From the UHGV virus genome UHGV-0767307: DNA of 10,151 bases; one strand, given 5' to 3'. Position 1 is the stretch's first letter. Every line of letters starts with the position of its first letter. The position numbers and the translations under genes are program-made. The notes under the pieces are model-generated. The model did no database searches. It worked only from the letters and a program-made list of their open reading frames with translations, and was not told where the DNA came from. This DNA is from a virus. Below, one piece after another: positions 1 through 9,979 of the stretch.

Positions 1-199
1 ACGAATACACCGGTAACGGCGTTACGACATCGTTTCCGTATACTTTTCGAATTTTGATGTTACACAAGCGAGAAAACTTGATAAAAAAGGCTGGAACAAA
101 AAGGGGCTGTATTCAATACAGACCCCTGGTGGAATACAAGAACTATCCATCGTTTCAGAATCAGGTCTCTACATCCTTATTCTGCGTTGCAAAGAGGCA

Positions 200-634
200 A
201 TGACTGAGGGAACGAGAGCATTCAGATTTCTTGAATGGGTTACAGGTGAGGTTCTTCCTCAGATCCGCCGCACCGGAAGTTACATTAAAAACTCGCTCCC
301 GCAGGAAGAACGCATAAAGATGGTTGCCGACCAGGTAGCCAACGCCACGGCGTCAGCAGTAATGCAGGCAATGAAGATAGAGAACAAAACCTACAGTGCC
401 CCGCTGAAGCCCGGCTACCGCAGCCTGATTCATTCGCCGTCTGGTGTTCTCGGCCTGACGGAGAACTCACTGCTGATGAATCTGCTGAACCAGTTACAGG
501 ACGACGGGCACGACGTATCGGGCGCGGCGGCGGAGCTGACCACCATGTTCTGCTACATCGTCGGTGTGAGTAAATGCCTGCGTGATATCCAGACTCACGC
601 GGAGTACATCAACGACAAAGCAGGATTCTTCTGA
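200..634 (+). CDS. Bro-N-like antirepressor-family protein, probably N-terminally truncated (144 aa from the only in-frame ATG)
   Basis: ORF 200..634. The translation across the start (..ELSIVSESGLYILILRCKEA-MTEGTRAFRFLEWVTGEVLPQIRRTGSY..) matches the conserved C-terminal end of Bro-N domains (ESGLY...A..F..WV..VLP.IR..G.Y pattern, recalled, not searched). The frame is open upstream only to a TAA at 14-16, and there is no ATG/GTG/TTG in frame between 17 and 199. A hairpin follows the stop. Confidence 0.55.
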   Translation: MTEGTRAFRFLEWVTGEVLPQIRRTGSYIKNSLPQEERIKMVADQVANATASAVMQAMKIENKTYSAPLKPGYRSLIHSPSGVLGLTENSLLMNLLNQLQDDGHDVSGAAAELTTMFCYIVGVSKCLRDIQTHAEYINDKAGFF

Positions 635-642
635 CGGGCGGC

Positions 643-668
643 GGCACAGGGATGTGCCTTTAAATAAT
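643..668 (+). terminator. Possible weak intrinsic terminator after the Bro-like ORF
   Basis: Stem GGCACA (643-648) / TGTGCC (653-658) with a GGGA loop, followed by the T/A-rich run TTTAAATAATT. Lies 9 nt after the stop at 632-634. The short stem and interrupted U-tract make it weak. Confidence 0.3.
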
Positions 669-678
669 TCTGTACAGA

Positions 679-707
679 TTGCAGACTGGGGGTGAATAGC
701 GTACTAT
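679..707 (+). promoter_or_regulatory. Candidate sigma70-type promoter for the 781..1413 gene
   Basis: TTGCAG (679-684), 17-bp spacer, TACTAT (702-707). Sits in the AT-rich intergenic region about 75 nt upstream of ATG 781. Found by eye only, so the false-positive risk is high. Confidence 0.25.
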
Positions 708-780
708 TACCTCAAGGGTAAGAAAGCATTTTTAATCTTCCCTTCAAAACGCGTCCTGTAGCCAAACATGGGAGGACGAA

Positions 781-1413
781 ATGAGAACAAATACAACAAG
801 AAAAGCGATGCCATACATTATCCCAGAAGCAGATTTCGATAGAAAACTGAACATGTCTGAGAAGAACACTAGTCACACCGAAAGCTACTTAGCGAAAGGT
901 GTGGTTGATTTCGTTCTTCCGGGATTCACAACACCTTATGGTTATCGCCTTGTAAAATCTTGTAATGGCGATCATTACAGAATGATTACTACCAGCGATA
1001 CTCCAGAAACGGTGTATGCGGTTAAGTTAATCTTTCGGGAAGATATCGTCGAAGCCAAAAGAACATGTACGCAGATCATGGTATGGCGTACGCCTAATGT
1101 TATTCATGACCGTGCTGTTCATGGTTTGCCTCAGATTTTTTTTCAGTTCTTCCTAGAGCAATATGCGATCGTTGTATCTGATGAGCAACAAACAATCGAT
1201 GGGAGAAGATTCTGGGAAAGAATGATTTCTTGGGCTATAAACACCCCAGGATATAATGTATACGTTTCAGATGGCTCTGAAGAAGATAGACCTCTTAGCT
1301 TCATGACATCATGGGATGATTTCTATAGCCAGTGGGCTGATTTCTGTTGGGGCAGTGATAAAGATGTGCATACCCACAGACTACTGGTTATAAGCAAAGA
1401 TAAACTGCATTAA
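781..1413 (+). CDS. Hypothetical protein, 210 aa, no signal peptide; moron-like cargo gene of unknown function
   Basis: ORF 781..1413 with a strong Shine-Dalgarno GGAGGA (771-776) 4 nt before the ATG. GC is about 38-40%, clearly below the flanking phage genes. A classic intrinsic terminator follows directly. I recognise no family; the sequence is acidic and aromatic-rich with a C-terminal ..HTHRLLVISKDKLH. Confidence 0.75.
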   Translation: MRTNTTRKAMPYIIPEADFDRKLNMSEKNTSHTESYLAKGVVDFVLPGFTTPYGYRLVKSCNGDHYRMITTSDTPETVYAVKLIFREDIVEAKRTCTQIMVWRTPNVIHDRAVHGLPQIFFQFFLEQYAIVVSDEQQTIDGRRFWERMISWAINTPGYNVYVSDGSEEDRPLSFMTSWDDFYSQWADFCWGSDKDVHTHRLLVISKDKLH

Positions 1414-1416
1414 TAG

Positions 1417-1439
1417 AAGCCCGCAGCGCGGGCTTTTTT
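1417..1439 (+). terminator. Rho-independent terminator of the 781..1413 gene
   Basis: Perfect 8-bp stem AAGCCCGC (1417-1424) / GCGGGCTT (1428-1435) with a 3-nt loop, running into a T6 tract (1434-1439). Begins 4 nt after the TAA stop. Confidence 0.7.
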
Positions 1440-1511
1440 GTGGACGAAACAAAAGTCAGTGCTACACTCATTGACGCCACATTGAGGTGGCTTATAGATG
1501 GAAATTTCACA

Positions 1512-1673
1512 ATGAAAAAAGCATTTGCTGCACTGTTCGTTTTGTTGTCTCTGGTAGCTTCAACTCAGGCCTTTGCCGGTCGTTGTCAGCACGACAGCGA
1601 TACCGCCGCTGACGGCTCCCGCTGCGGTGGGCGTTCTGCGGATTCCCGCCCGGGCGGCGGTGGCATTCGTTAA
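1512..1673 (+). CDS. Small secreted peptide precursor (53 aa: Sec-type signal peptide plus a 31-aa Gly/Arg/Asp-rich mature part with 2 Cys)
   Basis: ATG 1512 gives MKKAFAALFVLLSLVASTQAFA|GRCQHDSDTAADGSRCGGRSADSRPGGGGIR, with a textbook n-h-c signal peptide and an AFA cleavage motif. The ORF track starts at GTG 1440, which would put 24 residues in front of the signal peptide, so ATG 1512 is preferred. The 3' half is markedly GC-rich. A 5-codon upstream ORF at 1498-1515 (MEISQ) with SD GAGGTGG overlaps the ATG. The gene is short, so a chance ORF is not excluded. Confidence 0.5.
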   Translation: MKKAFAALFVLLSLVASTQAFAGRCQHDSDTAADGSRCGGRSADSRPGGGGIR

Positions 1674-1696
1674 AAACAAGGCCGCGAAAGCGGCCT
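1671..1696 (-). terminator. Intrinsic terminator for the minus-strand gene 1710..2159 (hairpin shared with the end of the + strand peptide gene)
   Basis: Stem GGCCGC (1680-1685) / GCGGCC (1690-1695) with a GAAA tetraloop. On the - strand transcript it is followed by UUGUUUUUA (complement of 1671-1679). Lies 14 nt downstream of the - strand stop at 1710-1712. There is no U-tract on the + strand side. Confidence 0.55.
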
Positions 1697-1709
1697 GTGA
1701 CATGTCACG

Positions 1710-2159
1710 CTACTTGCGAAATCTTTCTTTACCCTTCCAGCCAGTAGATGTTAGTTCAGGATGAATGGTTCCCAATATAAAGCCAACCATAGCGGAGCGA
1801 GGATCTTCTATTTTATCCGTTAATTCTTCGGCATAACTCACAGGCAACCAAGCAACAAGATCACCAATCCTCAGCTTTGGTCCTTTGCTGTAAGATGAAT
1901 CGGCAATAACAAAAAATCCACCATCAGCTGAGCACACCTTCAGCATTGCCCTTTGTCTTCCAGAATCTAGCAAAACTGGCTGTTCCCCACTTGGACCAGG
2001 TATGATGATGGCTGGCATTGGTTTATTGGCTGAAAGGCTTGTGTCAAGATACTTACACGCATACTCAAAAGCTGAAAAGTTATCCTTAAAGATAAGAGGT
2101 TGAATTTTATTGCTAACCTCCTTACCACCGATTAATCTGTTGATCATCTTCTTGAACAT
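1710..2159 (-). CDS. Hypothetical protein, 149 aa, cytoplasmic-looking, unknown function
   Basis: Minus-strand ORF with stop at 1710-1712. The track starts at GTG 2166-2168, but the in-frame ATG at 2157-2159 is preceded by AGGTGA with a 5-nt spacer, and the GGTGA is built from that GTG, so ATG 2159 is preferred. GC about 40%. Protein MFKKMINRLIGG...; no motif recognised. Confidence 0.6.
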   Translation of the reverse strand: MFKKMINRLIGGKEVSNKIQPLIFKDNFSAFEYACKYLDTSLSANKPMPAIIIPGPSGEQPVLLDSGRQRAMLKVCSADGGFFVIADSSYSKGPKLRIGDLVAWLPVSYAEELTDKIEDPRSAMVGFILGTIHPELTSTGWKGKERFRK

Positions 2160-2171
2160 AAAGGTCACCTA

Positions 2172-2612
2172 ATGATTAAGCCGATGCACGCTATTACAGC
2201 TACCGTTTTGTTTATCCTACCAATTTTTTTGTTTGCAAACGACATATGTTTTAAGAATTTAATAAATGAGGATATGTGTGCACATGCAAACAAAATTGCA
2301 TCAGAAGCAGGAAAGTCACTTCCCATAAAATTGAATGATAATATGTCTATTGTTTCAATAAATGCAATACTAAACAAACTTTTAGTTGTAGCGCATCTTA
2401 ATTACAACAACAGCTATTTATCAAAAGTTTATAACGGTGATGTAACCTTAGAAAATAAATTAAAGAGTGTAATGCGAAATTATTCAAAATCGAGCATTTG
2501 CTCCAACAGGCAAATGAAAGCATTTATTCACCTTGGCGGAGAGATTGAATATAGGTATGTATTTAGTGATGGCAATATATTTGATACATACGCCATCACT
2601 AATTGTGAATAG
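2172..2612 (+). CDS. Secreted or membrane-anchored protein, 146 aa, AT-rich moron gene of unknown function
   Basis: ORF 2172..2612 at roughly 30-32% GC. A 146-codon open frame is very unlikely by chance at that composition (rough estimate P about 1e-5). The N-terminus MIKPMHAITATVLFILPIFLFA is a signal peptide or signal anchor. The protein is Asn/Lys/Ile-rich with 4 Cys. Its TAG stop (2610-2612) abuts the stop of the convergent 2613.. gene. Confidence 0.7.
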   Translation: MIKPMHAITATVLFILPIFLFANDICFKNLINEDMCAHANKIASEAGKSLPIKLNDNMSIVSINAILNKLLVVAHLNYNNSYLSKVYNGDVTLENKLKSVMRNYSKSSICSNRQMKAFIHLGGEIEYRYVFSDGNIFDTYAITNCE

Positions 2613-5324
2613 CTATTTCATCTGCTCTTCAACTTTATTTAGTAACGGTGATATCGCCCACAGGTTCTGAAAAGGTAGCATTTTACGGACCGCGTGGGTT
2701 TGCTGGCTGTCAAATTCTCCGTTAAGTACACCATTCGCAACCGTCGCGGCATCACCGCCAAGATCAAAGGTAGGACCAAGTAAAGCACCAATAGCATTAC
2801 GACTCTGAAACCTTGATACCGGAGGCGCACCAAACATCGCGCCAAGACCAAACCTACCGCCGCTTATGTTCTCAACGGTATTCAGCGGCTCAGAGAGCCA
2901 GCCAAGCATTCCGCCCCGGTCGATCCCCTCTTTCACAAGGTTATTCCAGCTGTAGTCGATATCGCGACCGCTTAACTTCTGTTTCATCATATAGACCATT
3001 GAGCCAAGCGCAATCGTGCCAAGCGCACCAAGATAGAATGCAGCATCGCCCTGCTGGATACCAGATACTAGCACCCTGTTATGCTGTGCGAAGATAAACG
3101 TTTTGAACTGCGTGATCATCTTCCAGCCTTCTTTACTAAAAAACAGCGGTGTATCACCTACGCCAGGCGTTACAATCACTGAGTCTACATCTTTCAGCAC
3201 TGCAGACTGGAAAATCTCTCTAGCGAAACGGTCATCCCACAGATGACTATGCCCGGTTAACAGCCCGTCCATATCCTCTCCGTGCTCCCCGAATTGCTCC
3301 CCGATTCGGCGCAGAACATCTTCATTGATGCCGACCTGTGCCATCTTCCGCATTTCACTTTTGGAGAGCGTGCCACCAGCAGAAACTTGGCGAGCCGCGT
3401 CAAGTATCCTCGACTGCACTATCATCCCGGACCATGATTTAAGTGCGCTGTTCCACTGATTCATCAGCGTCCAGTTACCGAATTTCTGCGTCATCCAGTT
3501 CAGACCTCGCTCAGCGGCGCTTCTCCGGCTATAGGGGTCAGTAAGATCCGCTATAGCCTTTGTACGCGTAGACAGGACATAATCAAGCCCAACGGCCATT
3601 TCTCGCAAATCCCTGGTTGCAATTTTCACTGAGTCCATATTTTTAAGCATGCTTACCATTGGTCCGAGAGATTTTCTCAGGCCATGCTGCATCATCGGTC
3701 GCATCAGATCAGTTGCAGCGGAGACAGTCATTCCACCAAGCAAACGGAGGAAGTTAATATTCCTAGCAACTCGCCCGGCACGAACAAAGAAACTGCGTGG
3801 ATCTTGAGGTGCACCGTAAGTACCAAGCAGTCGATCACGCATAGCCGTAATATCCCTAATATCAGCCTCCCGTTGCTTCTCAAGAACTGCACGTCGTTTA
3901 GGTGTTTTAGCCTCTTTTATTAGCCGGGTATATTCCTCACTAACCTGACGGATTTGCTCCCCCATATCTTTACGGCCAAACTGCGCAGTCAGCTCAATTT
4001 CTGGTGCCACCTGCCGGAGATAACTTTCCATGATGTAGTTAACATCTGATTCAAGAAAATCTTCTATACGCTCATCAGGAATAAGCAGCGTTCTGCTTTT
4101 AGTGAAACCAGCCCGACCAACGAGTCTCTCTGGGATAATATCGGCTGGTACAAGCCCGGAAGGTGCGCCTATTATTTTATTCACGATCTCGTCAGCAGCG
4201 TCCTCTGCTTCCTCTCGGGATAGAGGCTCCATCTGCTTCAGTGCTCGTTCGCGGCTTGCATTCAGCCTTGTGGTTGAATTTGCCCGTTTTTGCAGTCGGC
4301 GAAGCTCAGAACGATATTTCCGTGGATTATCCAGCAACTCCATATGGCGCTGATAGACAGGAAGCTCACTCTTTGCCTGCGCTATATCATCAAGGCGTGT
4401 TTTAAGGTCAGAGCTTTCTTTCATCATTCTTGCCTGAAGTTTTTCTGATGAAGTCTCGGCCAACTCTTTTTCTATTCTTGTAAGACGCGCCTGTGTGTCA
4501 GTCTCCTGAGATATAAGCTTATTTCGTTTATCCAGTTCTTCCATGAGTAGAATTTTTTTACCAGACCATTTCTCCGCTTCAGCGATTTCACTAGCGAGAG
4601 CATCAGCGCGCGGTGCCGATTCCTCTGCAGTTTTTAGCAATGAATTTATCCTTTCAATTCGCTGACCTGCTTTGTCAGCACCTTTGGCACTAATCCCTTG
4701 TATCCAGTTGGCAATTCGCCCTCTGAATTCAGTGCGGTCGGAAAGTATCTTATCGAACTTATAAATGCGGGGAAGATAACTTTTCGCCGTCACGACATCG
4801 ATATCCTCAGGAAGGATCCCCAGTTCCTGCATACGGGCTTTTGTGGTCTCGAAAATGGGGCGGATTCTGGCGGCTGCTTGTGAAACCTCAGGAATATCAC
4901 TCTGATCACCACGGCGCATAGCCATGCCAACAGCTTCATTGAAATCAATAAAGTTCATCCTCTTCACGCCGCGGGCGCTAACAGATTTGCTGTACTGCTG
5001 GTAAGCATCACGAGTGGCTTCCATCTGCTTATAAAGCATGGCGTCGTATTGCTTAATCTTAGTCTCGACTGCCGTAAACGTAGCCAACCCCTCATCATTT
5101 TTGGCGAAGAAATAGTTATTTTCGGCAAGCTGCTGGTTAATCTGACGGGAGACAAGAGATGGTGATTGAGCCAAGCGGCCAGCAGGAGTGACACTCAACG
5201 TTTTGTTAGCAAGTCCAAGTCCAGCGAGCTGTTCCTGATCGAGTGTGGTATTGAAAACCTGAGCTGCACCAATGCTTTGAGGAGAATCCATACCTCGCAA
5301 ATGATTACCTACTGAGTTAACCAC
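2613..5324 (-). CDS. C-terminal portion (903-codon ORF) of a large internal-virion / ejection-like protein gene split by a tandem duplication
   Basis: The open frame 2613..5324 begins at GTG 5322-5324 (first ATG at 5289-5291), neither with a convincing Shine-Dalgarno. Its first 188 residues are identical to the last residues of ORF 5392..6657 because of the 655-bp repeat. Removing one copy joins the two ORFs in frame. It contains a long charged coiled-coil-like region (..ELDKRNKLISQETDTQARLTRIEKELAETSSEKLQARMMKESSDLKTRLDD..) and a Gly-rich C-terminal end. Confidence 0.7.
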   Translation of the reverse strand: MVNSVGNHLRGMDSPQSIGAAQVFNTTLDQEQLAGLGLANKTLSVTPAGRLAQSPSLVSRQINQQLAENNYFFAKNDEGLATFTAVETKIKQYDAMLYKQMEATRDAYQQYSKSVSARGVKRMNFIDFNEAVGMAMRRGDQSDIPEVSQAAARIRPIFETTKARMQELGILPEDIDVVTAKSYLPRIYKFDKILSDRTEFRGRIANWIQGISAKGADKAGQRIERINSLLKTAEESAPRADALASEIAEAEKWSGKKILLMEELDKRNKLISQETDTQARLTRIEKELAETSSEKLQARMMKESSDLKTRLDDIAQAKSELPVYQRHMELLDNPRKYRSELRRLQKRANSTTRLNASRERALKQMEPLSREEAEDAADEIVNKIIGAPSGLVPADIIPERLVGRAGFTKSRTLLIPDERIEDFLESDVNYIMESYLRQVAPEIELTAQFGRKDMGEQIRQVSEEYTRLIKEAKTPKRRAVLEKQREADIRDITAMRDRLLGTYGAPQDPRSFFVRAGRVARNINFLRLLGGMTVSAATDLMRPMMQHGLRKSLGPMVSMLKNMDSVKIATRDLREMAVGLDYVLSTRTKAIADLTDPYSRRSAAERGLNWMTQKFGNWTLMNQWNSALKSWSGMIVQSRILDAARQVSAGGTLSKSEMRKMAQVGINEDVLRRIGEQFGEHGEDMDGLLTGHSHLWDDRFAREIFQSAVLKDVDSVIVTPGVGDTPLFFSKEGWKMITQFKTFIFAQHNRVLVSGIQQGDAAFYLGALGTIALGSMVYMMKQKLSGRDIDYSWNNLVKEGIDRGGMLGWLSEPLNTVENISGGRFGLGAMFGAPPVSRFQSRNAIGALLGPTFDLGGDAATVANGVLNGEFDSQQTHAVRKMLPFQNLWAISPLLNKVEEQMK

Positions 5325-5411
5325 TGCCTCGCGCGCGCTAGGTCCAGCAAGTAGCTGTGCACCAGCACCAAGGATCCCACCAACGAGAGCATCAACAACA
5401 ACGTTCGATAC
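4757..5411. repeat. Tandem direct repeat, copy A (655 bp)
   Basis: Identical to 5412-6066 wherever I compared the two copies in 60-nt blocks across the whole unit. Flanking bases differ (4756 A vs 5411 C; 5412 A vs 6067 G), so the boundaries are exact and the copies sit head-to-tail with no spacer. Confidence 0.9.
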
Positions 5412-6657
5412 ACTTATAAATGCGGGGAAGATAACTTTTCGCCGTCACGACATCGATATCCTCAGGAAGGATCCCCAGTTCCTGCATACGGGCTTTTGTG
5501 GTCTCGAAAATGGGGCGGATTCTGGCGGCTGCTTGTGAAACCTCAGGAATATCACTCTGATCACCACGGCGCATAGCCATGCCAACAGCTTCATTGAAAT
5601 CAATAAAGTTCATCCTCTTCACGCCGCGGGCGCTAACAGATTTGCTGTACTGCTGGTAAGCATCACGAGTGGCTTCCATCTGCTTATAAAGCATGGCGTC
5701 GTATTGCTTAATCTTAGTCTCGACTGCCGTAAACGTAGCCAACCCCTCATCATTTTTGGCGAAGAAATAGTTATTTTCGGCAAGCTGCTGGTTAATCTGA
5801 CGGGAGACAAGAGATGGTGATTGAGCCAAGCGGCCAGCAGGAGTGACACTCAACGTTTTGTTAGCAAGTCCAAGTCCAGCGAGCTGTTCCTGATCGAGTG
5901 TGGTATTGAAAACCTGAGCTGCACCAATGCTTTGAGGAGAATCCATACCTCGCAAATGATTACCTACTGAGTTAACCACTGCCTCGCGCGCGCTAGGTCC
6001 AGCAAGTAGCTGTGCACCAGCACCAAGGATCCCACCAACGAGAGCATCAACAACAACGTTCGATACGCTCTCCATCGGTGAGCGAGCTTCCTGAGTGGCC
6101 TGTAATGCGGCTTCTGATACTCCCCCACCAGCAGCATTCGCCAGGGCAAAACGCCCTGCCGTCTCAGCAATACTTCCTCCACGCGCTACCGCCCCTACAG
6201 GGATAAACATTGCAGCCACATTAACCGGGTCTATCATTCCCATTGCTAAGCTTGAAATAGTACCAGCACCACCCATTTCAGATAGATATTCTCTATCTGT
6301 TCTTTGCTTATCGATTCGATGTTTAATTGCCATTGTTTCTTCATGCGAACCGGAGTTGATAAACGAATCTGCAAAATCTTCATAGCCTTTAATATCTGCT
6401 GCATCGTTATCAAATGGGTTATATCCTTCAACCCTGTCAAACTGACTGAAAGGAGCACTGGCAATAAAGCTACCCAGCGTGTTATCTATACGAAATGCTG
6501 CTTGTCTAGACCTTTGAACGCGTTGATCACTGGTAAATGGGTTCACAGCAGAAAGCAAAGAAGGTGTTTCCATATAGAAATTACTGTCATCAGGTGCTGC
6601 TATTTGCTGAATATCCTCGCCAAGCAACTCTTTAGGATCCTGTTCATATATCGGCAT
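5392..6657 (-). CDS. N-terminal portion (421-codon ORF) of the same large virion protein gene, ending prematurely just after the duplication junction
   Basis: ATG at 6655-6657 overlaps the TAA of the upstream 915-aa gene (TAATG). The frame runs through copy B, crosses the junction at 5411/5412 out of frame and stops after 6 aberrant codons (..YLPRIYK-CIERCC*). It contains Gly/Ala-rich hydrophobic segments (..GGAGTISSLAMGMIDPVNVAAMFIPVGAVARGG.., ..LVGGILGAGAQLLAG..), consistent with a membrane-interacting ejection protein. Confidence 0.7.
   Translation of the reverse strand: MPIYEQDPKELLGEDIQQIAAPDDSNFYMETPSLLSAVNPFTSDQRVQRSRQAAFRIDNTLGSFIASAPFSQFDRVEGYNPFDNDAADIKGYEDFADSFINSGSHEETMAIKHRIDKQRTDREYLSEMGGAGTISSLAMGMIDPVNVAAMFIPVGAVARGGSIAETAGRFALANAAGGGVSEAALQATQEARSPMESVSNVVVDALVGGILGAGAQLLAGPSAREAVVNSVGNHLRGMDSPQSIGAAQVFNTTLDQEQLAGLGLANKTLSVTPAGRLAQSPSLVSRQINQQLAENNYFFAKNDEGLATFTAVETKIKQYDAMLYKQMEATRDAYQQYSKSVSARGVKRMNFIDFNEAVGMAMRRGDQSDIPEVSQAAARIRPIFETTKARMQELGILPEDIDVVTAKSYLPRIYKCIERCC
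5412..6066. repeat. Tandem direct repeat, copy B (655 bp)
   Basis: Second copy of the 655-bp unit. 655 = 3x218+1, so reading through both copies shifts the frame by +1. The track ORFs 4964..5194 and 5619..5849 are identical 76-aa by-products of the repeat. Confidence 0.9.
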
Positions 6658-9404
6658 TATTTGCCCCCTGCGTATATATTGCTCGGAAGGTAATTGGCTG
6701 AACCATAACCGAATGGTTTGGTCAGATCTGGAGGAGTATATCCATCTTTATTGCTGAACTGCGGCAGCGGATTGCCTTCTCTCCGCACTCTAGCCTCATC
6801 AACACGTTGTTGCTGGAACTGAATGGTTTGCCTGTACATTGGAGATGTCAGCTGATCCGGCTTGAAACGAACAGGGAGACCATTTTCTCCAATATAATTT
6901 CTCGGTTCTATCGCTCCGTTTGCGTCAGGCTGTAAAACCATAACAGCATAACTCCTATCCCTTGCCGTAAGGCCATCAGAAACAAGTATTAAGTCCGTAT
7001 CACTGCGAGGACCGCCAAAGGATTTTGATTTAAGCTCGCGTTTTTCCTGCTCCCACTGCCCCTGTATCCAGTTACCAGCACCATTATTTACTCCGTACAA
7101 TGCCTCAGGTGCATACTTCATAACCTCTGCTTTGCCATTAACCGTAGAAACTCCCCAGGTGGTTCTGATCATGGCATTGGTCATTTTCTCAGCCTGTTCT
7201 GCATCGCCACCTGTCTGTACAAAGTTAGCATCGTAAATTGTCTGGTAATCTCGCTGATAGGCCGCATTTGATTTTCCTGGATCGGTAATATCCGGAGACC
7301 ACGAACCAAAGGAAGTCAGACTGCTGGCGTTATTTTGTGCAGCAGTTGCCCTCGCCGCGACATATTTTTTGTCTCGCATGGCAGTGGAAAGCATCTGTTT
7401 CATTCGGTCATCCTGTTGGAACACCTGGCTGTAAGCCATATCAACAGCCTTATCCTCCGGCACGCCAGCGCGGGAATAATCGTAAACCTTGCCGTAAAAT
7501 GCCATCGTACTTTTATCAAGTGTTGCCGCTGCCGCCGGATTATTATCGAATAACTGACCGTAGAATTTTGCCATCGGGACAACCAGCGCAGGATCTCTTG
7601 ATGTTGCTCCACTGTTAAGCATTGTTTTAACCTGAGTTGGTATCATGCCGCTTTTAGTTGTGACGGTGACCAGTGTATTGATGCTCTGCGGATCAGATAT
7701 GGAAAACGAAGGCGCGATATCCTGCGCGAAATAACGGTCTACCGCTGCCTGATTGTTTTTGTCGTTCGGGTCCAGCGGGAAGTTATTTTGCATTGAAGAC
7801 ACGAACCTGTTTCTTCCCTGCTGAATCTCCCACTCCCTATCCATCTCTTTAAATTTGGCCTGCATTTTCTCCCAGCGTTGCTGGTTAGCTGCAAATCCAG
7901 GAGCGTTTGGATCCTGTGGACGTAAACGTTCAAGAATGTCTTGTCGTCCTTCTGGAGTGAGGTCTTTAGCGGCACCAATGACACCTCCATATTGTATCTG
8001 CGCCTGCATATCCTTCCACTTCATAGCGCCAATGCGCGGACCATTGGCCCGGATAAAATCGTCCTCAGAAGGTAACTTCTCAGGTTTCAATCCTTCATCA
8101 AGGGCTGAATATGCATCTTTAACTACGGTGCTAAGCTGGTCCGCATACTGCTGGCGGTACTGATTTCTCAGCTCATTAGCCTGCCTCAATGCCTGTATTT
8201 GCATTTGAGGGCTCATAGCATCAAATGCCGCATTGCCCGTATAACGCTTAGGTGAATCAAGGTTAGTTAGACCAAGGGCTGCCGAGATACCAGTTTCAAG
8301 CTGTTCGGTGCTATAAGGCATACTGCCATTTTCGTGTTTAATAATCCCAGCACATAAAGCAGCTAGTGTCTTTGGGTTAGAGATATCAAGCTGATCATTC
8401 TCCCCAACACCAAGCTCACCACACAATGCCCTAATATAAGCATCAGTATTATTACCATCACTAGCCGGAGCATAGCGATTAACAATCTCGCTAACGGTGT
8501 CATAGCCTTGACGCTGGTAAGACAACATATTTTTACCCAACGCGCGGATTCCATGCTCAGGGGTAGCAAACGTTGCAAAACGTCCATCGCTACCGATCTG
8601 ACCTTCCCACGGGTTAGATTTGCTCGCTTCAATATTACCAGGGTTATTATTACGTAAACCACGAGCATCCAATGAATTACCATGTGATATTGCACGACTC
8701 ACACCATCAAGATCCCCTGGCTCTCCATTAACCTGAAGAAACTCGTTGTATTTTTGAGCGATATTTCCTATCCATGCTTGCTGCCCCATTTGTTCCTTGA
8801 GCTGAGTTTTCTGCTGAACACGCCACTCATCAGGAAGCCCATGCGCATCAGCGTATTGATCAATAGATTCAAATCGCTGCTTGGCTAAATCGACAAATGC
8901 TTGGTTATCGCTATATAGCCCCGCAGACTGAGTGACAGCCAATGCATTTCCTGACAAATACGTTTGATCTTGGAATTGCTGAAACTGCCCAACTTCATAT
9001 CGACGTGCCTGATTGTAATAAGACTGCATAGACTGCTGGAGTTGAAAGGATAATTTATTCCTTTCCTCACTTTCAGGAATTGAGCCTAATAATGCCTGAG
9101 CCCTTTCCTGCATATTTTTCATAACAGCGTCACTCTGACCAAGAGCGTTTTTACCCTGTTTAGAAATCAGCCCACTTTCAGGGTTGTTAATCTGGTCATC
9201 TGCAAATTGGTTAAATTGCAGTAACGCCTCCTGGGCCATAGCAACATTCGCTTTCTGCCTGGCTTCACCATATGCCACCGCATACTGATCTGCGACATTC
9301 GCCAGCACCTGACCTGCTTGAGGAACATCGAAGATCTGAAAACCACCGGTTTGCACACCACGACTTTGCACCTGGCGTCCGGATGTAGTAGGAACAACAG
9401 GCAT
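6657..9404 (-). CDS. Large virion protein, 915 aa (internal-virion / ejection-protein-like), with a central conserved-looking RNNNPGNI...W.G module
   Basis: Uninterrupted 2748-nt ORF. The ATG at 9402-9404 overlaps the TGA of the 191-aa gene (TGATG) and is preceded by a perfect AGGAGG (complement of 9410-9415). The stop overlaps the next ATG. The protein is Gln-rich with no recognisable enzymatic motif except the ..GLRNNNPGNIEASKSNPWEGQ..FATF..PEHGIRAL.. segment. The functional call is inferred from size and order. Confidence 0.85.
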   Translation of the reverse strand: MPVVPTTSGRQVQSRGVQTGGFQIFDVPQAGQVLANVADQYAVAYGEARQKANVAMAQEALLQFNQFADDQINNPESGLISKQGKNALGQSDAVMKNMQERAQALLGSIPESEERNKLSFQLQQSMQSYYNQARRYEVGQFQQFQDQTYLSGNALAVTQSAGLYSDNQAFVDLAKQRFESIDQYADAHGLPDEWRVQQKTQLKEQMGQQAWIGNIAQKYNEFLQVNGEPGDLDGVSRAISHGNSLDARGLRNNNPGNIEASKSNPWEGQIGSDGRFATFATPEHGIRALGKNMLSYQRQGYDTVSEIVNRYAPASDGNNTDAYIRALCGELGVGENDQLDISNPKTLAALCAGIIKHENGSMPYSTEQLETGISAALGLTNLDSPKRYTGNAAFDAMSPQMQIQALRQANELRNQYRQQYADQLSTVVKDAYSALDEGLKPEKLPSEDDFIRANGPRIGAMKWKDMQAQIQYGGVIGAAKDLTPEGRQDILERLRPQDPNAPGFAANQQRWEKMQAKFKEMDREWEIQQGRNRFVSSMQNNFPLDPNDKNNQAAVDRYFAQDIAPSFSISDPQSINTLVTVTTKSGMIPTQVKTMLNSGATSRDPALVVPMAKFYGQLFDNNPAAAATLDKSTMAFYGKVYDYSRAGVPEDKAVDMAYSQVFQQDDRMKQMLSTAMRDKKYVAARATAAQNNASSLTSFGSWSPDITDPGKSNAAYQRDYQTIYDANFVQTGGDAEQAEKMTNAMIRTTWGVSTVNGKAEVMKYAPEALYGVNNGAGNWIQGQWEQEKRELKSKSFGGPRSDTDLILVSDGLTARDRSYAVMVLQPDANGAIEPRNYIGENGLPVRFKPDQLTSPMYRQTIQFQQQRVDEARVRREGNPLPQFSNKDGYTPPDLTKPFGYGSANYLPSNIYAGGK

Positions 9405-9979
9405 CAGTAACCTCCTATTTTGAATCGGGAGTCAGAATTCATAAAACCTGAGTTAGATAACATTGGCGTCCCACCACTAGATGTACTTCCTTTAGAGAAC
9501 GGACTCCACGTCCCACCAAACATCTGGTACGCACCGTATGCCTTCAGAGGCGCAGTGAGCAATGTTGTTGCTGCTCCCACATTCCCCTGTTTACGGGCTG
9601 AACTGGCTTCTGCTTTATAGTTGGCAGCCTGAACCTGATAACCGTAAGCCTCGCGTTGCGCGTTATTCACCGTCGTCAGCGAATCAAGAGCGCCAAACTG
9701 GGCAGTGTCGCCAAATATATCCAGCGCGTTACCTGTAGATAAATCAGCGCCGGTAGCCCCCATTGTCGCTGCCTGTGTACCAAGCCGCTGTCGGGTCTCT
9801 CTGCGTCGTTGCTCAGCTTCAGCGTTACCTCTGTTTATTGCATCATTTGCCTGAGCTGTGGCTATATCTGCGTTCGCTTCTGCAACCTTCGAGGCATACT
9901 TTCCCTGTTGGTACTGGGTGTATGCCTGAATGCCACTCATGGCGAGCATTGCGCCACCAGCAATAACCGGATCGCACAT
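9404..9979 (-). CDS. Small virion-associated protein, 191 aa, with N-terminal hydrophobic segment and Ala/Gln-rich helical region
   Basis: ORF with ATG at 9977-9979 preceded by GGAGAG (5-6 nt spacer). N-terminus MCDPVIAGGAMLAMSGIQAY is hydrophobic, followed by an Ala/Gln/Asn-rich stretch and a Gly/Ser-rich C-terminus. Coupled to both neighbours by 1-nt stop/start overlaps. In position and size it is analogous to the small internal virion protein that precedes the two large ones in T7-like podoviruses (inference). Confidence 0.8.
   Translation of the reverse strand: MCDPVIAGGAMLAMSGIQAYTQYQQGKYASKVAEANADIATAQANDAINRGNAEAEQRRRETRQRLGTQAATMGATGADLSTGNALDIFGDTAQFGALDSLTTVNNAQREAYGYQVQAANYKAEASSARKQGNVGAATTLLTAPLKAYGAYQMFGGTWSPFSKGSTSSGGTPMLSNSGFMNSDSRFKIGGY

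What the first reader, a model, noticed from the sequence alone, without database searches (positions are those of the whole stretch)
640..2612. AT-rich accessory island of four unassignable genes between an antirepressor-like gene and the virion ejection operon
GC drops from about 50% in the flanking phage genes to about 30-40% across roughly 640-2612, with an exact boundary at 2612/2613. The island holds four ORFs I cannot place in any family: a 210-aa cytoplasmic protein, a 53-aa secreted Gly/Arg-rich peptide, a 149-aa protein and a 146-aa signal-peptide protein, and it carries its own terminators. In P22-like phages the superinfection-exclusion gene sieA lies directly downstream of the ejection-protein genes and next to the immI antirepressor region (recalled knowledge). 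By that analogy, and because two products are exported, this island is a plausible site for exclusion, defence or another host-modifying function. The function itself is entirely inference.
Basis: partly seen in the sequence, partly recalled or inferred. Interest (0 to 1): 0.75.

Follow-up and report, generated by a model that had tools for sequence, protein, structure and literature searches.

The report
Two-slot accessory-gene hotspot in an E. coli prophage
This stretch is a swap-in, swap-out cargo region of a phiV10/epsilon15-type E. coli prophage whose four uncharacterised genes (one looks like a secretion-system "pilotin", one distantly like an acetyltransferase) probably protect the host cell, but no function has been shown.

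Summary
The four ORFs, two terminators and the sharp 2612/2613 boundary are real. The composition claim is overstated: the island is 41.4% GC against 48.1% for the rest of the window. Only the 146-aa gene is really AT-rich (31.5%), and the 53-aa gene is GC-rich (58.6%).

The region is not one island. It is two independently exchangeable cassettes around a conserved 53-aa secreted-peptide gene, in a phiV10/epsilon15-like temperate podophage. It lies between the last T7-gp14/15/16-like ejection gene and a Bro-N antirepressor, the same relative position as sieA in P22.

Cassette A holds a solitary 210-aa protein with a weak GNAT-like fold. Sibling prophages carry at least nine other cargoes there, including YafO-type toxins and DUF4760 or DUF2335 membrane proteins.

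No known defence family matches any cargo. The protective role is inference. This is a new member of a known kind, of moderate interest.

The parts
17..634 (+). 3' part of a Bro-N-type antirepressor gene. It is 5'-truncated: the reading frame is open from about nt 17, and the first start codon is at 200.
   Evidence: It matches PHROG anti-repressor families. It is 98% identical over window 45-721 to the Bro-N gene region of L001. The N-terminal ~35 codons are replaced by tailspike sequence.
635..780 (+). Intergenic leader of cassette A. It contains a hairpin at 643-660, the variable left recombination edge (645-726) and a GGAGG ribosome-binding site before 781.
   Evidence: Homology to relatives with other cargo ends between 645 and 726. 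The hairpin was folded. The sequence was read. Promoter scans were inconclusive.
781..1413 (+). Cassette A cargo: a solitary 210-aa cytoplasmic protein (phrog_1349) with a distant GNAT-like fold.
1415..1440 (+). Intrinsic terminator T1, which is also the conserved right edge of cassette A.
   Evidence: It has a 10-bp stem followed by a U6 run, at -17 kcal/mol and z -3.4. The same 25 nt follow unrelated cargo genes in E. coli, Cedecea and metagenomic relatives.
1512..1673 (+). Conserved 53-aa secreted peptide gene. It encodes a signal peptide plus a 31-aa Gly/Arg-rich mature part with 2 Cys. GC is 58.6%.
   Evidence: It matches phrog_14503/3117. The protein is identical in 7 relatives with different cargo, and is 88% identical at the protein level (49 residues aligned) in the one diverged copy, where the DNA is 76% identical. 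It occurs in 422-499 of 5426 E. coli genomes. In the phage collection it is found only in E. coli and Klebsiella phage records, of which those examined are epsilon15/phiV10-like.
1679..1696 (-). Terminator T2. Its U-run is on the minus strand, so it ends the late/149-aa strand. It is also the left edge of cassette B.
   Evidence: It is annotated as a terminator at the equivalent place in phiV10. Homology to relatives ends at 1698-1718.
1710..2159 (-). 149-aa cytoplasmic protein (phrog_9944). It belongs to an unnamed domain family and is the last gene on the late-operon strand.
   Evidence: A profile search found 308 representative clusters. The domain occurs alone, in tandem, C-terminal to multi-TM regions, and fused to a Zeta-toxin-type kinase. 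It also occurs without the 146-aa gene.
2160..2171 (.). 12-bp spacer between the divergent start codons. It contains the palindrome AGGTCACCT (2162-2170), which can act as a ribosome-binding site in both directions.
   Evidence: Read directly from the sequence.
2172..2612 (+). 146-aa periplasmic protein (phrog_8772). It has a signal peptide, 4 invariant Cys and an AspS/PA3611 (pilotin-like) fold. GC is 31.5%.
2613..6657 (-). Context: the gp16-like internal virion (ejection) protein gene, split into 903-aa and 421-aa ORFs by an exact 655-bp tandem duplication.
   Evidence: It matches phrog_342/16310. Relatives have a single 3390-nt gene. The duplication is 4757-5411 = 5412-6066.
6657..9979 (-). 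Context: the gp15-like gene (915 aa, transglycosylase region) and the gp14-like gene (191 aa) for internal virion proteins.
   Evidence: The 191-aa protein hits Pfam T7_gp14. The 915-aa protein matches phrog_1044 and phrog_418 matches the 191-aa protein. Homologues carry the SLT domain.

Best explanation
The interval 640-2612 is a compound accessory-gene ('moron') hotspot of a phiV10/epsilon15-like temperate podophage. It sits between the end of the ejection-protein (T7 gp14/15/16-like) operon and the Bro-N antirepressor.

It consists of two cassettes that are exchanged independently by recombination at conserved edges. The edges are the antirepressor 3' end, terminator T1, terminator T2 and the stop codon of the gp16-like gene. 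A conserved 53-aa secreted-peptide gene lies between the cassettes.

Cassette A here carries one self-contained gene for a 210-aa cytoplasmic protein with a distant GNAT-like fold. Cassette B carries a 149-aa cytoplasmic domain protein at the tail of the late strand. It also carries, inserted antiparallel with no spacer, a 146-aa soluble periplasmic protein with the AspS/PA3611 pilotin fold.

Most likely mechanism (inferred, not shown): these are cargo genes that protect the lysogen. The periplasmic protein would act as a binder or inhibitor. It would use the hydrophobic groove of the pilotin fold to capture a periplasm-exposed segment of an incoming protein. That target could be an ejection-conduit protein of a superinfecting phage or a cell-wall-attacking toxin. 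Cassette A supplies a cytoplasmic toxin or enzyme-type function. In sibling prophages this is taken by YafO-type toxins and small membrane proteins.
For: Shown:
- The backbone is phiV10/epsilon15-like.
- The cassette edges are defined by homology breakpoints against 11 relatives.
- Slot A has at least 10 alternative contents: the 210-aa gene, 59+YafO181, 108+YafO170, 72+125, DUF4760, 108+DUF2335, 62+110 TM, 193, 69+288, and 70+132.
- Seven IMG/VR prophages share a near-identical slot B and 53-aa gene (99-100% protein identity) but carry seven different slot A contents. Two of these are YafO-type modules of different families.
- Next to the same gp16-like allele (120 genomes), slot B is either the 149+146 pair (14 genomes) or a 282-aa exported protein (106 genomes).
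- No complete E. coli genome has the window's combination.
- The gene abutting the ejection operon encodes an exported or membrane protein in 10 of 11 relatives, from 6 of 7 unrelated families. One of these is a Rap1a-family periplasmic immunity protein.
- The 146-aa model is confident and matches AspS/PA3611. AspS binds the secretin S-domain through a groove, and PA3611 is a non-lipoprotein periplasmic homologue (PMC3542185).
- The 210-aa gene travels alone into sipho- and P1-like prophages.
- The positional analogy to P22 sieA holds (PMC10461980).
Against: - No cargo allele in either slot matches any PADLOC defence model.
- No expression, toxicity or exclusion data exist.
- Promoters are not convincingly identified.
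- The 149-aa gene lies on the late strand before the late terminator, so it may be a lytic-cycle gene.
- The GNAT similarity is weak: TM is below 0.35, there is no Q/RxxGxG/A motif and no Pfam hit.
- The 146-aa protein has no sequence-level link to AspS, and its target is unknown.
- The Klebsiella relative has a non-exported protein in slot B.
Confidence: 0.6

Rival explanations
1. Interbacterial-defence cargo. The 146-aa periplasmic and 149-aa cytoplasmic proteins would be orphan immunity proteins. They would neutralise toxins delivered by competitors (T6SS, CDI or colicin-type) rather than phages.
For: A relative carries a Rap1a-family T6SS immunity gene (Pfam PF18602, E 7e-13, above the cut-off) at exactly the slot B position (Rap1a biology in PMC3533786). 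The 149-aa domain has architectures typical of immunity proteins: standalone, tandem and fused. The AspS fold is related to alpha-lytic-protease-prodomain-like binder folds (ranks 3 and 57).
Against: There is no sequence or fold match of the 146- or 149-aa proteins to any known immunity family. No toxin gene lies nearby. This rests on one example only.
Confidence: 0.2
2. Lytic-cycle accessory functions. The 149-aa gene would be co-transcribed with the ejection operon, for example as an anti-defence or infection-establishment protein. The 146-aa protein would assist the phage's own envelope-spanning steps, acting as a chaperone in the way a pilotin does.
For: The 149-aa gene is on the late strand, upstream of the late terminator T2, which is also conserved in phiV10. 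In L025 a homologue directly follows the structural genes on the same strand. A tandem homologue sits in a large phage-like contig with NAD-salvage genes.
Against: The genes are absent from most relatives that have the same ejection genes, so they are dispensable. The 146-aa gene is antisense to the late transcript. It is absent from all 50,697 sequenced phage records.
Confidence: 0.12
3. Addiction or toxin-antitoxin cargo. The 210-aa protein would be a GNAT-type toxin (like TacT, AtaT or KacT) that stabilises the prophage or causes abortive infection.
For: Foldseek hits include KacT, AtaT and TacT3. The same slot carries YafO-family toxin modules with small upstream ORFs in siblings.
Against: There is no adjacent antitoxin in any of three phage backbones. 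The protein is 210 aa against about 160-175 aa for known GNAT toxins (the latter from general knowledge). It lacks an acetyl-CoA motif and has no Pfam hit. Structural scores are weak.
Confidence: 0.08

Closest known systems
P22 sieA / immI region (superinfection exclusion gene between ejection gene 16 and tailspike gene 9)
   Same: The relative genome position is the same: directly after the last ejection-protein gene, next to the antirepressor module and the tailspike. Presence is variable among relatives. One relative (TL-2011b) even carries P22-type Ant and Arc genes in the slot (PMC10461980).
   Different: SieA is a multi-pass inner-membrane protein with a conserved cytoplasmic motif. None of the four proteins here has these features. 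The phage backbone differs too: T7-type gp14/15/16 rather than P22 gp7/20/16.
AspS (T2SS pilotin, Vibrio/ETEC) and PA3611 (P. aeruginosa periplasmic protein)
   Different: Identity is 15%, with no sequence-profile link. It lacks the C-terminal helix alpha4. It has a second Cys pair (C26, C36). It is encoded in a prophage, not next to a secretin or T2SS. AspS is a lipoprotein.
Prophage defence/moron hotspots (for example P2 and P4 hotspots; morons in the sense of Juhala/Hendrix)
   Same: The flanks are conserved and the cargo is hypervariable. The composition is atypical. The cassettes have their own terminators and assort independently.
   Different: None of the more than 15 cargo alleles seen here is a recognised defence system. 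I found no published description of this hotspot.
GNAT acetyltransferases, including the toxins TacT/AtaT/KacT
   Same: The overall topology of the 210-aa model is picked up by two methods, and almost only GNATs are returned. A strongly conserved loop-helix (SDEEQTxDGRRFW) sits where GNATs bind the acetyl-CoA pyrophosphate. The placement of this loop is inference.

Membership tests
P22 SieA superinfection-exclusion proteins | Multi-pass inner-membrane protein | tested here: not met
   A hydropathy scan found only N-terminal signal peptides in the 53-aa and 146-aa proteins. The 210-aa and 149-aa proteins have no hydrophobic segment.
P22 SieA superinfection-exclusion proteins | Conserved motif FnRYPnEAnnFNK (PMC10461980) | tested here: not met
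   A regex search over all six frames of the window found no match, even with a loosened pattern.
P22 SieA superinfection-exclusion proteins | Gene located between the last ejection-protein gene and the tailspike gene of the prophage | tested here: met
   The slot lies between the gp16-like gene and the Bro-N/tailspike genes in all relatives examined. The backbone is not P22-like, so this is analogy only.
P22 SieA superinfection-exclusion proteins | Blocks DNA injection by related phages | not testable with these tools
   This needs plating and DNA-entry assays.
AspS-type T2SS pilotins / PA3611-like proteins | Alpha/beta fold with a 5-stranded sheet flanked by helices | tested here: met
AspS-type T2SS pilotins / PA3611-like proteins | Conserved disulfide tying helix alpha2 to the C-terminal segment | tested here: inconclusive
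   Invariant C110 (end of the long helix) and C145 (C-terminus) are suitably placed. Model coordinates and distances could not be inspected.
AspS-type T2SS pilotins / PA3611-like proteins | Lipoprotein signal (lipobox) for outer-membrane targeting; this applies to pilotins proper | tested here: not met
   The signal peptide ends ...IFLFA/NDIC. The Cys is not at +1 in the E. coli or Providencia members. This resembles the non-lipoprotein PA3611.
AspS-type T2SS pilotins / PA3611-like proteins | Sequence-family membership, and linkage to a secretin or T2SS locus | tested here: not met
   There is no Pfam or PDB sequence hit. The gene is always in the prophage slot.
GNAT acetyltransferase superfamily | GNAT fold | tested here: inconclusive
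GNAT acetyltransferase superfamily | Acetyl-CoA pyrophosphate-binding motif Q/R-x-x-G-x-G/A | tested here: not met
   A regex search found none. The nearest candidate is the conserved QTIDGRR at 137-143.
GNAT acetyltransferase superfamily | Profile-HMM membership (Pfam Acetyltransf_*) | tested here: not met
   There is no Pfam, NCBIfam or PDB profile hit.
GNAT/RHH type II toxin-antitoxin (TacAT, AtaRT, KacAT) | Adjacent small antitoxin gene | tested here: not met
   The gene is solitary in podo-, sipho- and P1-like contexts, with unrelated neighbours.
Moron (autonomous accessory gene unit in a phage genome) | Present or absent among otherwise related phages | tested here: met
Moron (autonomous accessory gene unit in a phage genome) | Own terminator and atypical base composition | tested here: met
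   Terminators T1 and T2 are confirmed. GC is 31.5-41.8% for three genes against 48% for the flank. The 146-aa gene has no terminator of its own.
Moron (autonomous accessory gene unit in a phage genome) | Own promoter active in the lysogen | tested here: inconclusive
   Only weak sigma-70-like matches were found, no more than expected by chance. Transcript data are needed.
Known anti-phage defence systems (PADLOC-DB 2.0) | HMM match to any component | tested here: not met
   There was no hit for the four proteins or for 15 alternative cargo proteins.

The most novel reading that the evidence does not exclude
Slot B may be a dedicated 'envelope-immunity' position of epsilon15/phiV10-like prophages. 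The 146-aa protein would be a new type of soluble periplasmic exclusion factor: a pilotin-fold decoy. It would capture an amphipathic segment of an incoming ejection-conduit protein (gp15/gp16-like) or a periplasm-acting hydrolase. This would block superinfection or toxin attack in the periplasm rather than at the inner membrane, as SieA does.
Probability: 0.15. Interest if true: 0.7.

Novelty: new member of a known kind. Interest (0 to 1): 0.42.

Why it matters
phiV10/epsilon15-like prophages are common in E. coli. The conserved 53-aa gene alone is in about 9% of complete genomes.

This hotspot holds well over a dozen cargo families, and none is recognised by current defence catalogues. If even some are exclusion, abortive-infection or anti-toxin functions, the slot is a compact source of new phage-resistance or interbacterial-immunity genes. 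The edges are well defined, so the cassettes are easy to clone.

A pilotin fold in a prophage periplasmic protein gives a concrete hypothesis that can be tested by binding assays. The finding also bears on phage therapy host range for O-antigen-specific podophages.

Tried and rejected
- Pfam, NCBIfam, PADLOC and PDB sequence searches gave nothing for the four proteins. This holds for single sequences and for profiles.
- The sub-threshold Ntox35 hit of the 146-aa protein (E 0.056) was rejected in favour of the strong AspS/PA3611 fold match.
- The DUF919 label on the gp16-like gene is probably a coiled-coil artefact.
- Rfam found no RNA family in 1-3200.
- Promoter scans were no better than shuffled sequence.
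- No SieA motif or GNAT motif A was found.
- Pattern-based locus searches with diverse 149-aa alignments failed because no stretch was conserved enough.
- The genome-contig scan with the gp16-like C-terminus returned only 2 loci.
- The afdb50 fold library was unavailable.
- An obligate 149/146 two-gene system was rejected because each occurs without the other.
- A search by the RefSeq accessions of the four proteins, and searches for moron, defence or hotspot work on this phage group, found no paper on these proteins or this hotspot.
Full report
**Observation**

The window carries, from left to right, these features:
- the 3' part of a Bro-N-type antirepressor gene, ending at 634;
- four ORFs: 781-1413(+) 210 aa, 1512-1673(+) 53 aa, 1710-2159(-) 149 aa and 2172-2612(+) 146 aa;
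- on the minus strand, genes for T7 gp16-like, gp15-like and gp14-like internal virion (ejection) proteins.

The 191-aa protein hits Pfam T7_gp14. The 915-aa and the 903+421-aa products match PHROG internal-virion and transglycosylase families.

Measured GC is 41.4% for 640-2612 and 48.1% for the rest of the window. No 1973-nt window outside the island falls below 46.1%. The shift is real but uneven:

| Gene | GC |
|---|---|
| 210 aa | 40.8% |
| 53 aa | 58.6% |
| 149 aa | 41.8% |
| 146 aa | 31.5% |

Two intrinsic terminators are present. T1 (1415-1440) follows the 210-aa gene. T2 (1679-1696) has its U-run on the minus strand. The stop codons of the 146-aa gene and the gp16-like gene abut at 2612/2613.

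**What the backbone is**

DNA searches place the segment in phiV10/epsilon15-like temperate podophages of E. coli: phiV10, TL-2011b, EC.W1-9, vB_EcoP_ZX5 and many prophages. It is not a P22-like phage. The gene order is the same as in P22, though: ejection genes, then the slot, then antirepressor, then tailspike. In P22, sieA lies between genes 16 and 9 (PMC10461980).

**Two cassettes, not one island**

I compared the window by BLASTN with 11 relatives.
- Homology is lost between 645 and 726. It returns at 1410-1434, exactly at terminator T1. The same 25 nt follow unrelated cargo genes even in Cedecea and in a metagenomic phiV10-like contig.
- Homology is lost again at 1698-1718, just past T2. 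It returns exactly at 2613.
- Between the two variable parts lies the 53-aa gene. Its protein is identical in seven relatives. In the one diverged copy the protein is 88% identical (49 residues aligned) while the DNA is 76% identical, so it is under purifying selection.
- The 53-aa gene occurs in 422-499 of 5426 complete E. coli genomes. In the phage collection it is found only in E. coli and Klebsiella phage records; the ones examined here (TL-2011b, EC.W1-9, vB_EcoP_ZX5 and Klebsiella phage ST512-KPC3phi13.3) have this backbone.

**Slot A**

Contents seen at this position:
- the 210-aa gene;
- 59 aa plus a YafO-family toxin of 181 aa (Pfam YafO_toxin, above the cut-off);
- 108 aa plus a 170-aa YafO-like protein;
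- 72+125 aa;
- a DUF4760 membrane protein;
- 108 aa plus a DUF2335 membrane protein;
- 62+110 aa membrane proteins;
- a 193-aa protein;
- 69+288 aa;
- 70+132 aa (Klebsiella);
- nothing (phiV10).

Seven IMG/VR prophages with a near-identical slot B and 53-aa gene (99-100% protein identity) carry seven different slot A contents. Two of these are YafO-type modules of different families. None is the 210-aa gene.

Among complete E. coli genomes, the 210-aa gene is in 93 and the 149+146 pair in 14. No genome has both in one place.

**Slot B**

Next to the same gp16-like allele (120 genomes), slot B is either the 149+146 pair (14 genomes) or a 282-aa Cys-rich exported protein (106 genomes). These add up to 120.

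Across 11 relatives, the gene that abuts the ejection operon encodes an exported or membrane protein in 10. These come from six of seven unrelated families:
- the 146-aa family (E. coli, Cedecea, Providencia);
- a family shared by a metagenomic 147-aa protein and TL-2011b gp39;
- the 282-aa protein;
- a 46-aa two-helix protein (phiV10);
- 102- and 115-aa membrane proteins (Serratia);
- a 129-aa protein that is a Rap1a-family periplasmic T6SS immunity protein (Pfam PF18602, E 7e-13).

The exception is a 204-aa Klebsiella protein with no export signal.

**The 146-aa protein**

It has a signal peptide without a lipobox and four invariant cysteines.
- AlphaFold2 gives pLDDT above 90 for residues 40-146.
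- The model has the extra helix after beta3 that distinguishes PA3611. Like PA3611, it is predicted to be soluble in the periplasm (PMC3542185).
- AspS binds the secretin S-domain, and a hydrophobic groove was proposed as the site.
- There is no sequence-level link to AspS, so this is a fold-level relationship only.
- The protein is absent from 50,697 sequenced phage records.

**The 149-aa protein**

Word-based search finds 13 clusters. A profile search of 1.84 billion representatives finds 308 clusters. The domain occurs in several forms:
- alone;
- in tandem;
- as the C-terminal cytoplasmic part of multi-pass membrane proteins;
- once fused to a Zeta-toxin-type kinase.

No Pfam or PDB family matches it.

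It is divergently paired with the exported protein in E. coli, Cedecea and a metagenome. The start codons are 12 bp apart. Each gene also occurs without the other, so they are not an obligate pair. The 149-aa gene lies on the late strand upstream of T2, so it may be read through from the ejection operon.

**The 210-aa protein**

The family has 63 clusters, all in Enterobacterales and nearly all about 210 aa. There are 21 invariant positions, including a conserved SDEEQTxDGRRFW stretch.
- The model has pLDDT 80.
- The scores are weak. The canonical acetyl-CoA motif is absent and no profile matches.
- The gene occurs alone in Serratia siphophage-type prophages, next to P22-type Ant/Arc and the tape-measure gene.
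- It also occurs alone in Citrobacter P1-like elements, next to the Sit transglycosylase gene.

It is therefore a mobile single-gene unit without an antitoxin.

**Interpretation**

The architecture is well supported: a two-slot hotspot with defined recombination edges. Function is inferred from four lines of evidence:
- the position, which is analogous to sieA;
- the near-constant envelope targeting of slot B products;
- a binder-type fold;
- toxin-type and membrane-protein cargo in slot A.

I favour prophage-expressed protection of the lysogen. Exclusion of superinfecting phages at the ejection step and neutralisation of periplasm-acting toxins are the two concrete versions. No known defence model matches any allele. 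I found no paper that describes these proteins or this hotspot.

**Verdict**

This is a new member of a known kind: a temperate-phage moron or defence-type hotspot. The useful structural leads are:
- the pilotin fold of the 146-aa protein (strong);
- the GNAT-like fold of the 210-aa protein (weak).

Interest is moderate.

Noticed in passing
window 4757-5411 and 5412-6066: An exact 655-bp tandem duplication splits the gp16-like ejection gene into 903-aa and 421-aa ORFs. Relatives have one 3390-nt gene. The same 421-aa product is on ENA metagenome contig ERZ1024467 NODE_7, so the duplication is in a public assembly.
   Followed up: partly
window 1-55: The first 55 nt are the N-terminal coding sequence of the tailspike (EYTGNGVTT...). 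It lies on the + strand and is joined through an ~11-nt microhomology (45-55) to about codon 36 of the Bro-N antirepressor. Both genes are therefore truncated. Together with the duplication, this suggests a defective prophage or a chimeric assembly.
   Followed up: partly
L019 (E. coli SCU-204) 1250-4410: The Bro-N + 210-aa + 53-aa segment is inverted relative to the ejection genes. It is flanked by antirepressor paralogues, one of them partial. This suggests inversion by recombination between antirepressor copies.
   Followed up: no
L027 4545-4988: A 147-aa exported protein shares the first 35 residues (signal peptide, 60% identity) with the 146-aa family. Its mature domain is unrelated and resembles the C-terminus of TL-2011b gp39. 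A recombination breakpoint inside the ORF seems to keep the 5' end, which overlaps the divergent 149-aa gene's upstream region.
   Followed up: partly
L024 7897-8286: A Rap1a-family T6SS immunity protein gene sits directly after the gp16-like gene. The contig is titled Pseudomonas lundensis, although its ejection protein is 80% identical to the E. coli one. This is an odd host assignment, possibly contamination or recent transfer.
   Followed up: no
window 2160-2171: The start codons of the divergent 149-aa and 146-aa genes are only 12 bp apart. The spacer holds the palindrome AGGTCACCT, which reads as a ribosome-binding site in both directions. Each gene's promoter must lie inside the other gene, so mutual antisense control is possible.
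   Followed up: no
L015-L018 (Citrobacter P1-like) 5001-5687; L011-L014 (Serratia) 5001-5633: Homologues of the 210-aa protein sit as lone genes next to the DNA-injection or tape-measure gene in three phage morphotypes: gp16-like, Sit and TMP. In Serratia they also sit beside P22-type Ant/Arc.
   Followed up: partly
L029 5001-5915: A tandem double copy of the 149-aa domain lies in a 44-kb phage-like contig among NAD-salvage genes (PRPP synthetase, NAPRTase, NADAR, a NUDIX/NrtR-type regulator) and a Cas Csy4 gene.
   Followed up: no
window 2613-5324: RefSeq names the gp16-like protein 'DUF919 family' after a 46-residue match to a baculovirus family (E 4e-5). The match lies in a predicted coiled-coil stretch and is probably not meaningful.
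   Followed up: no
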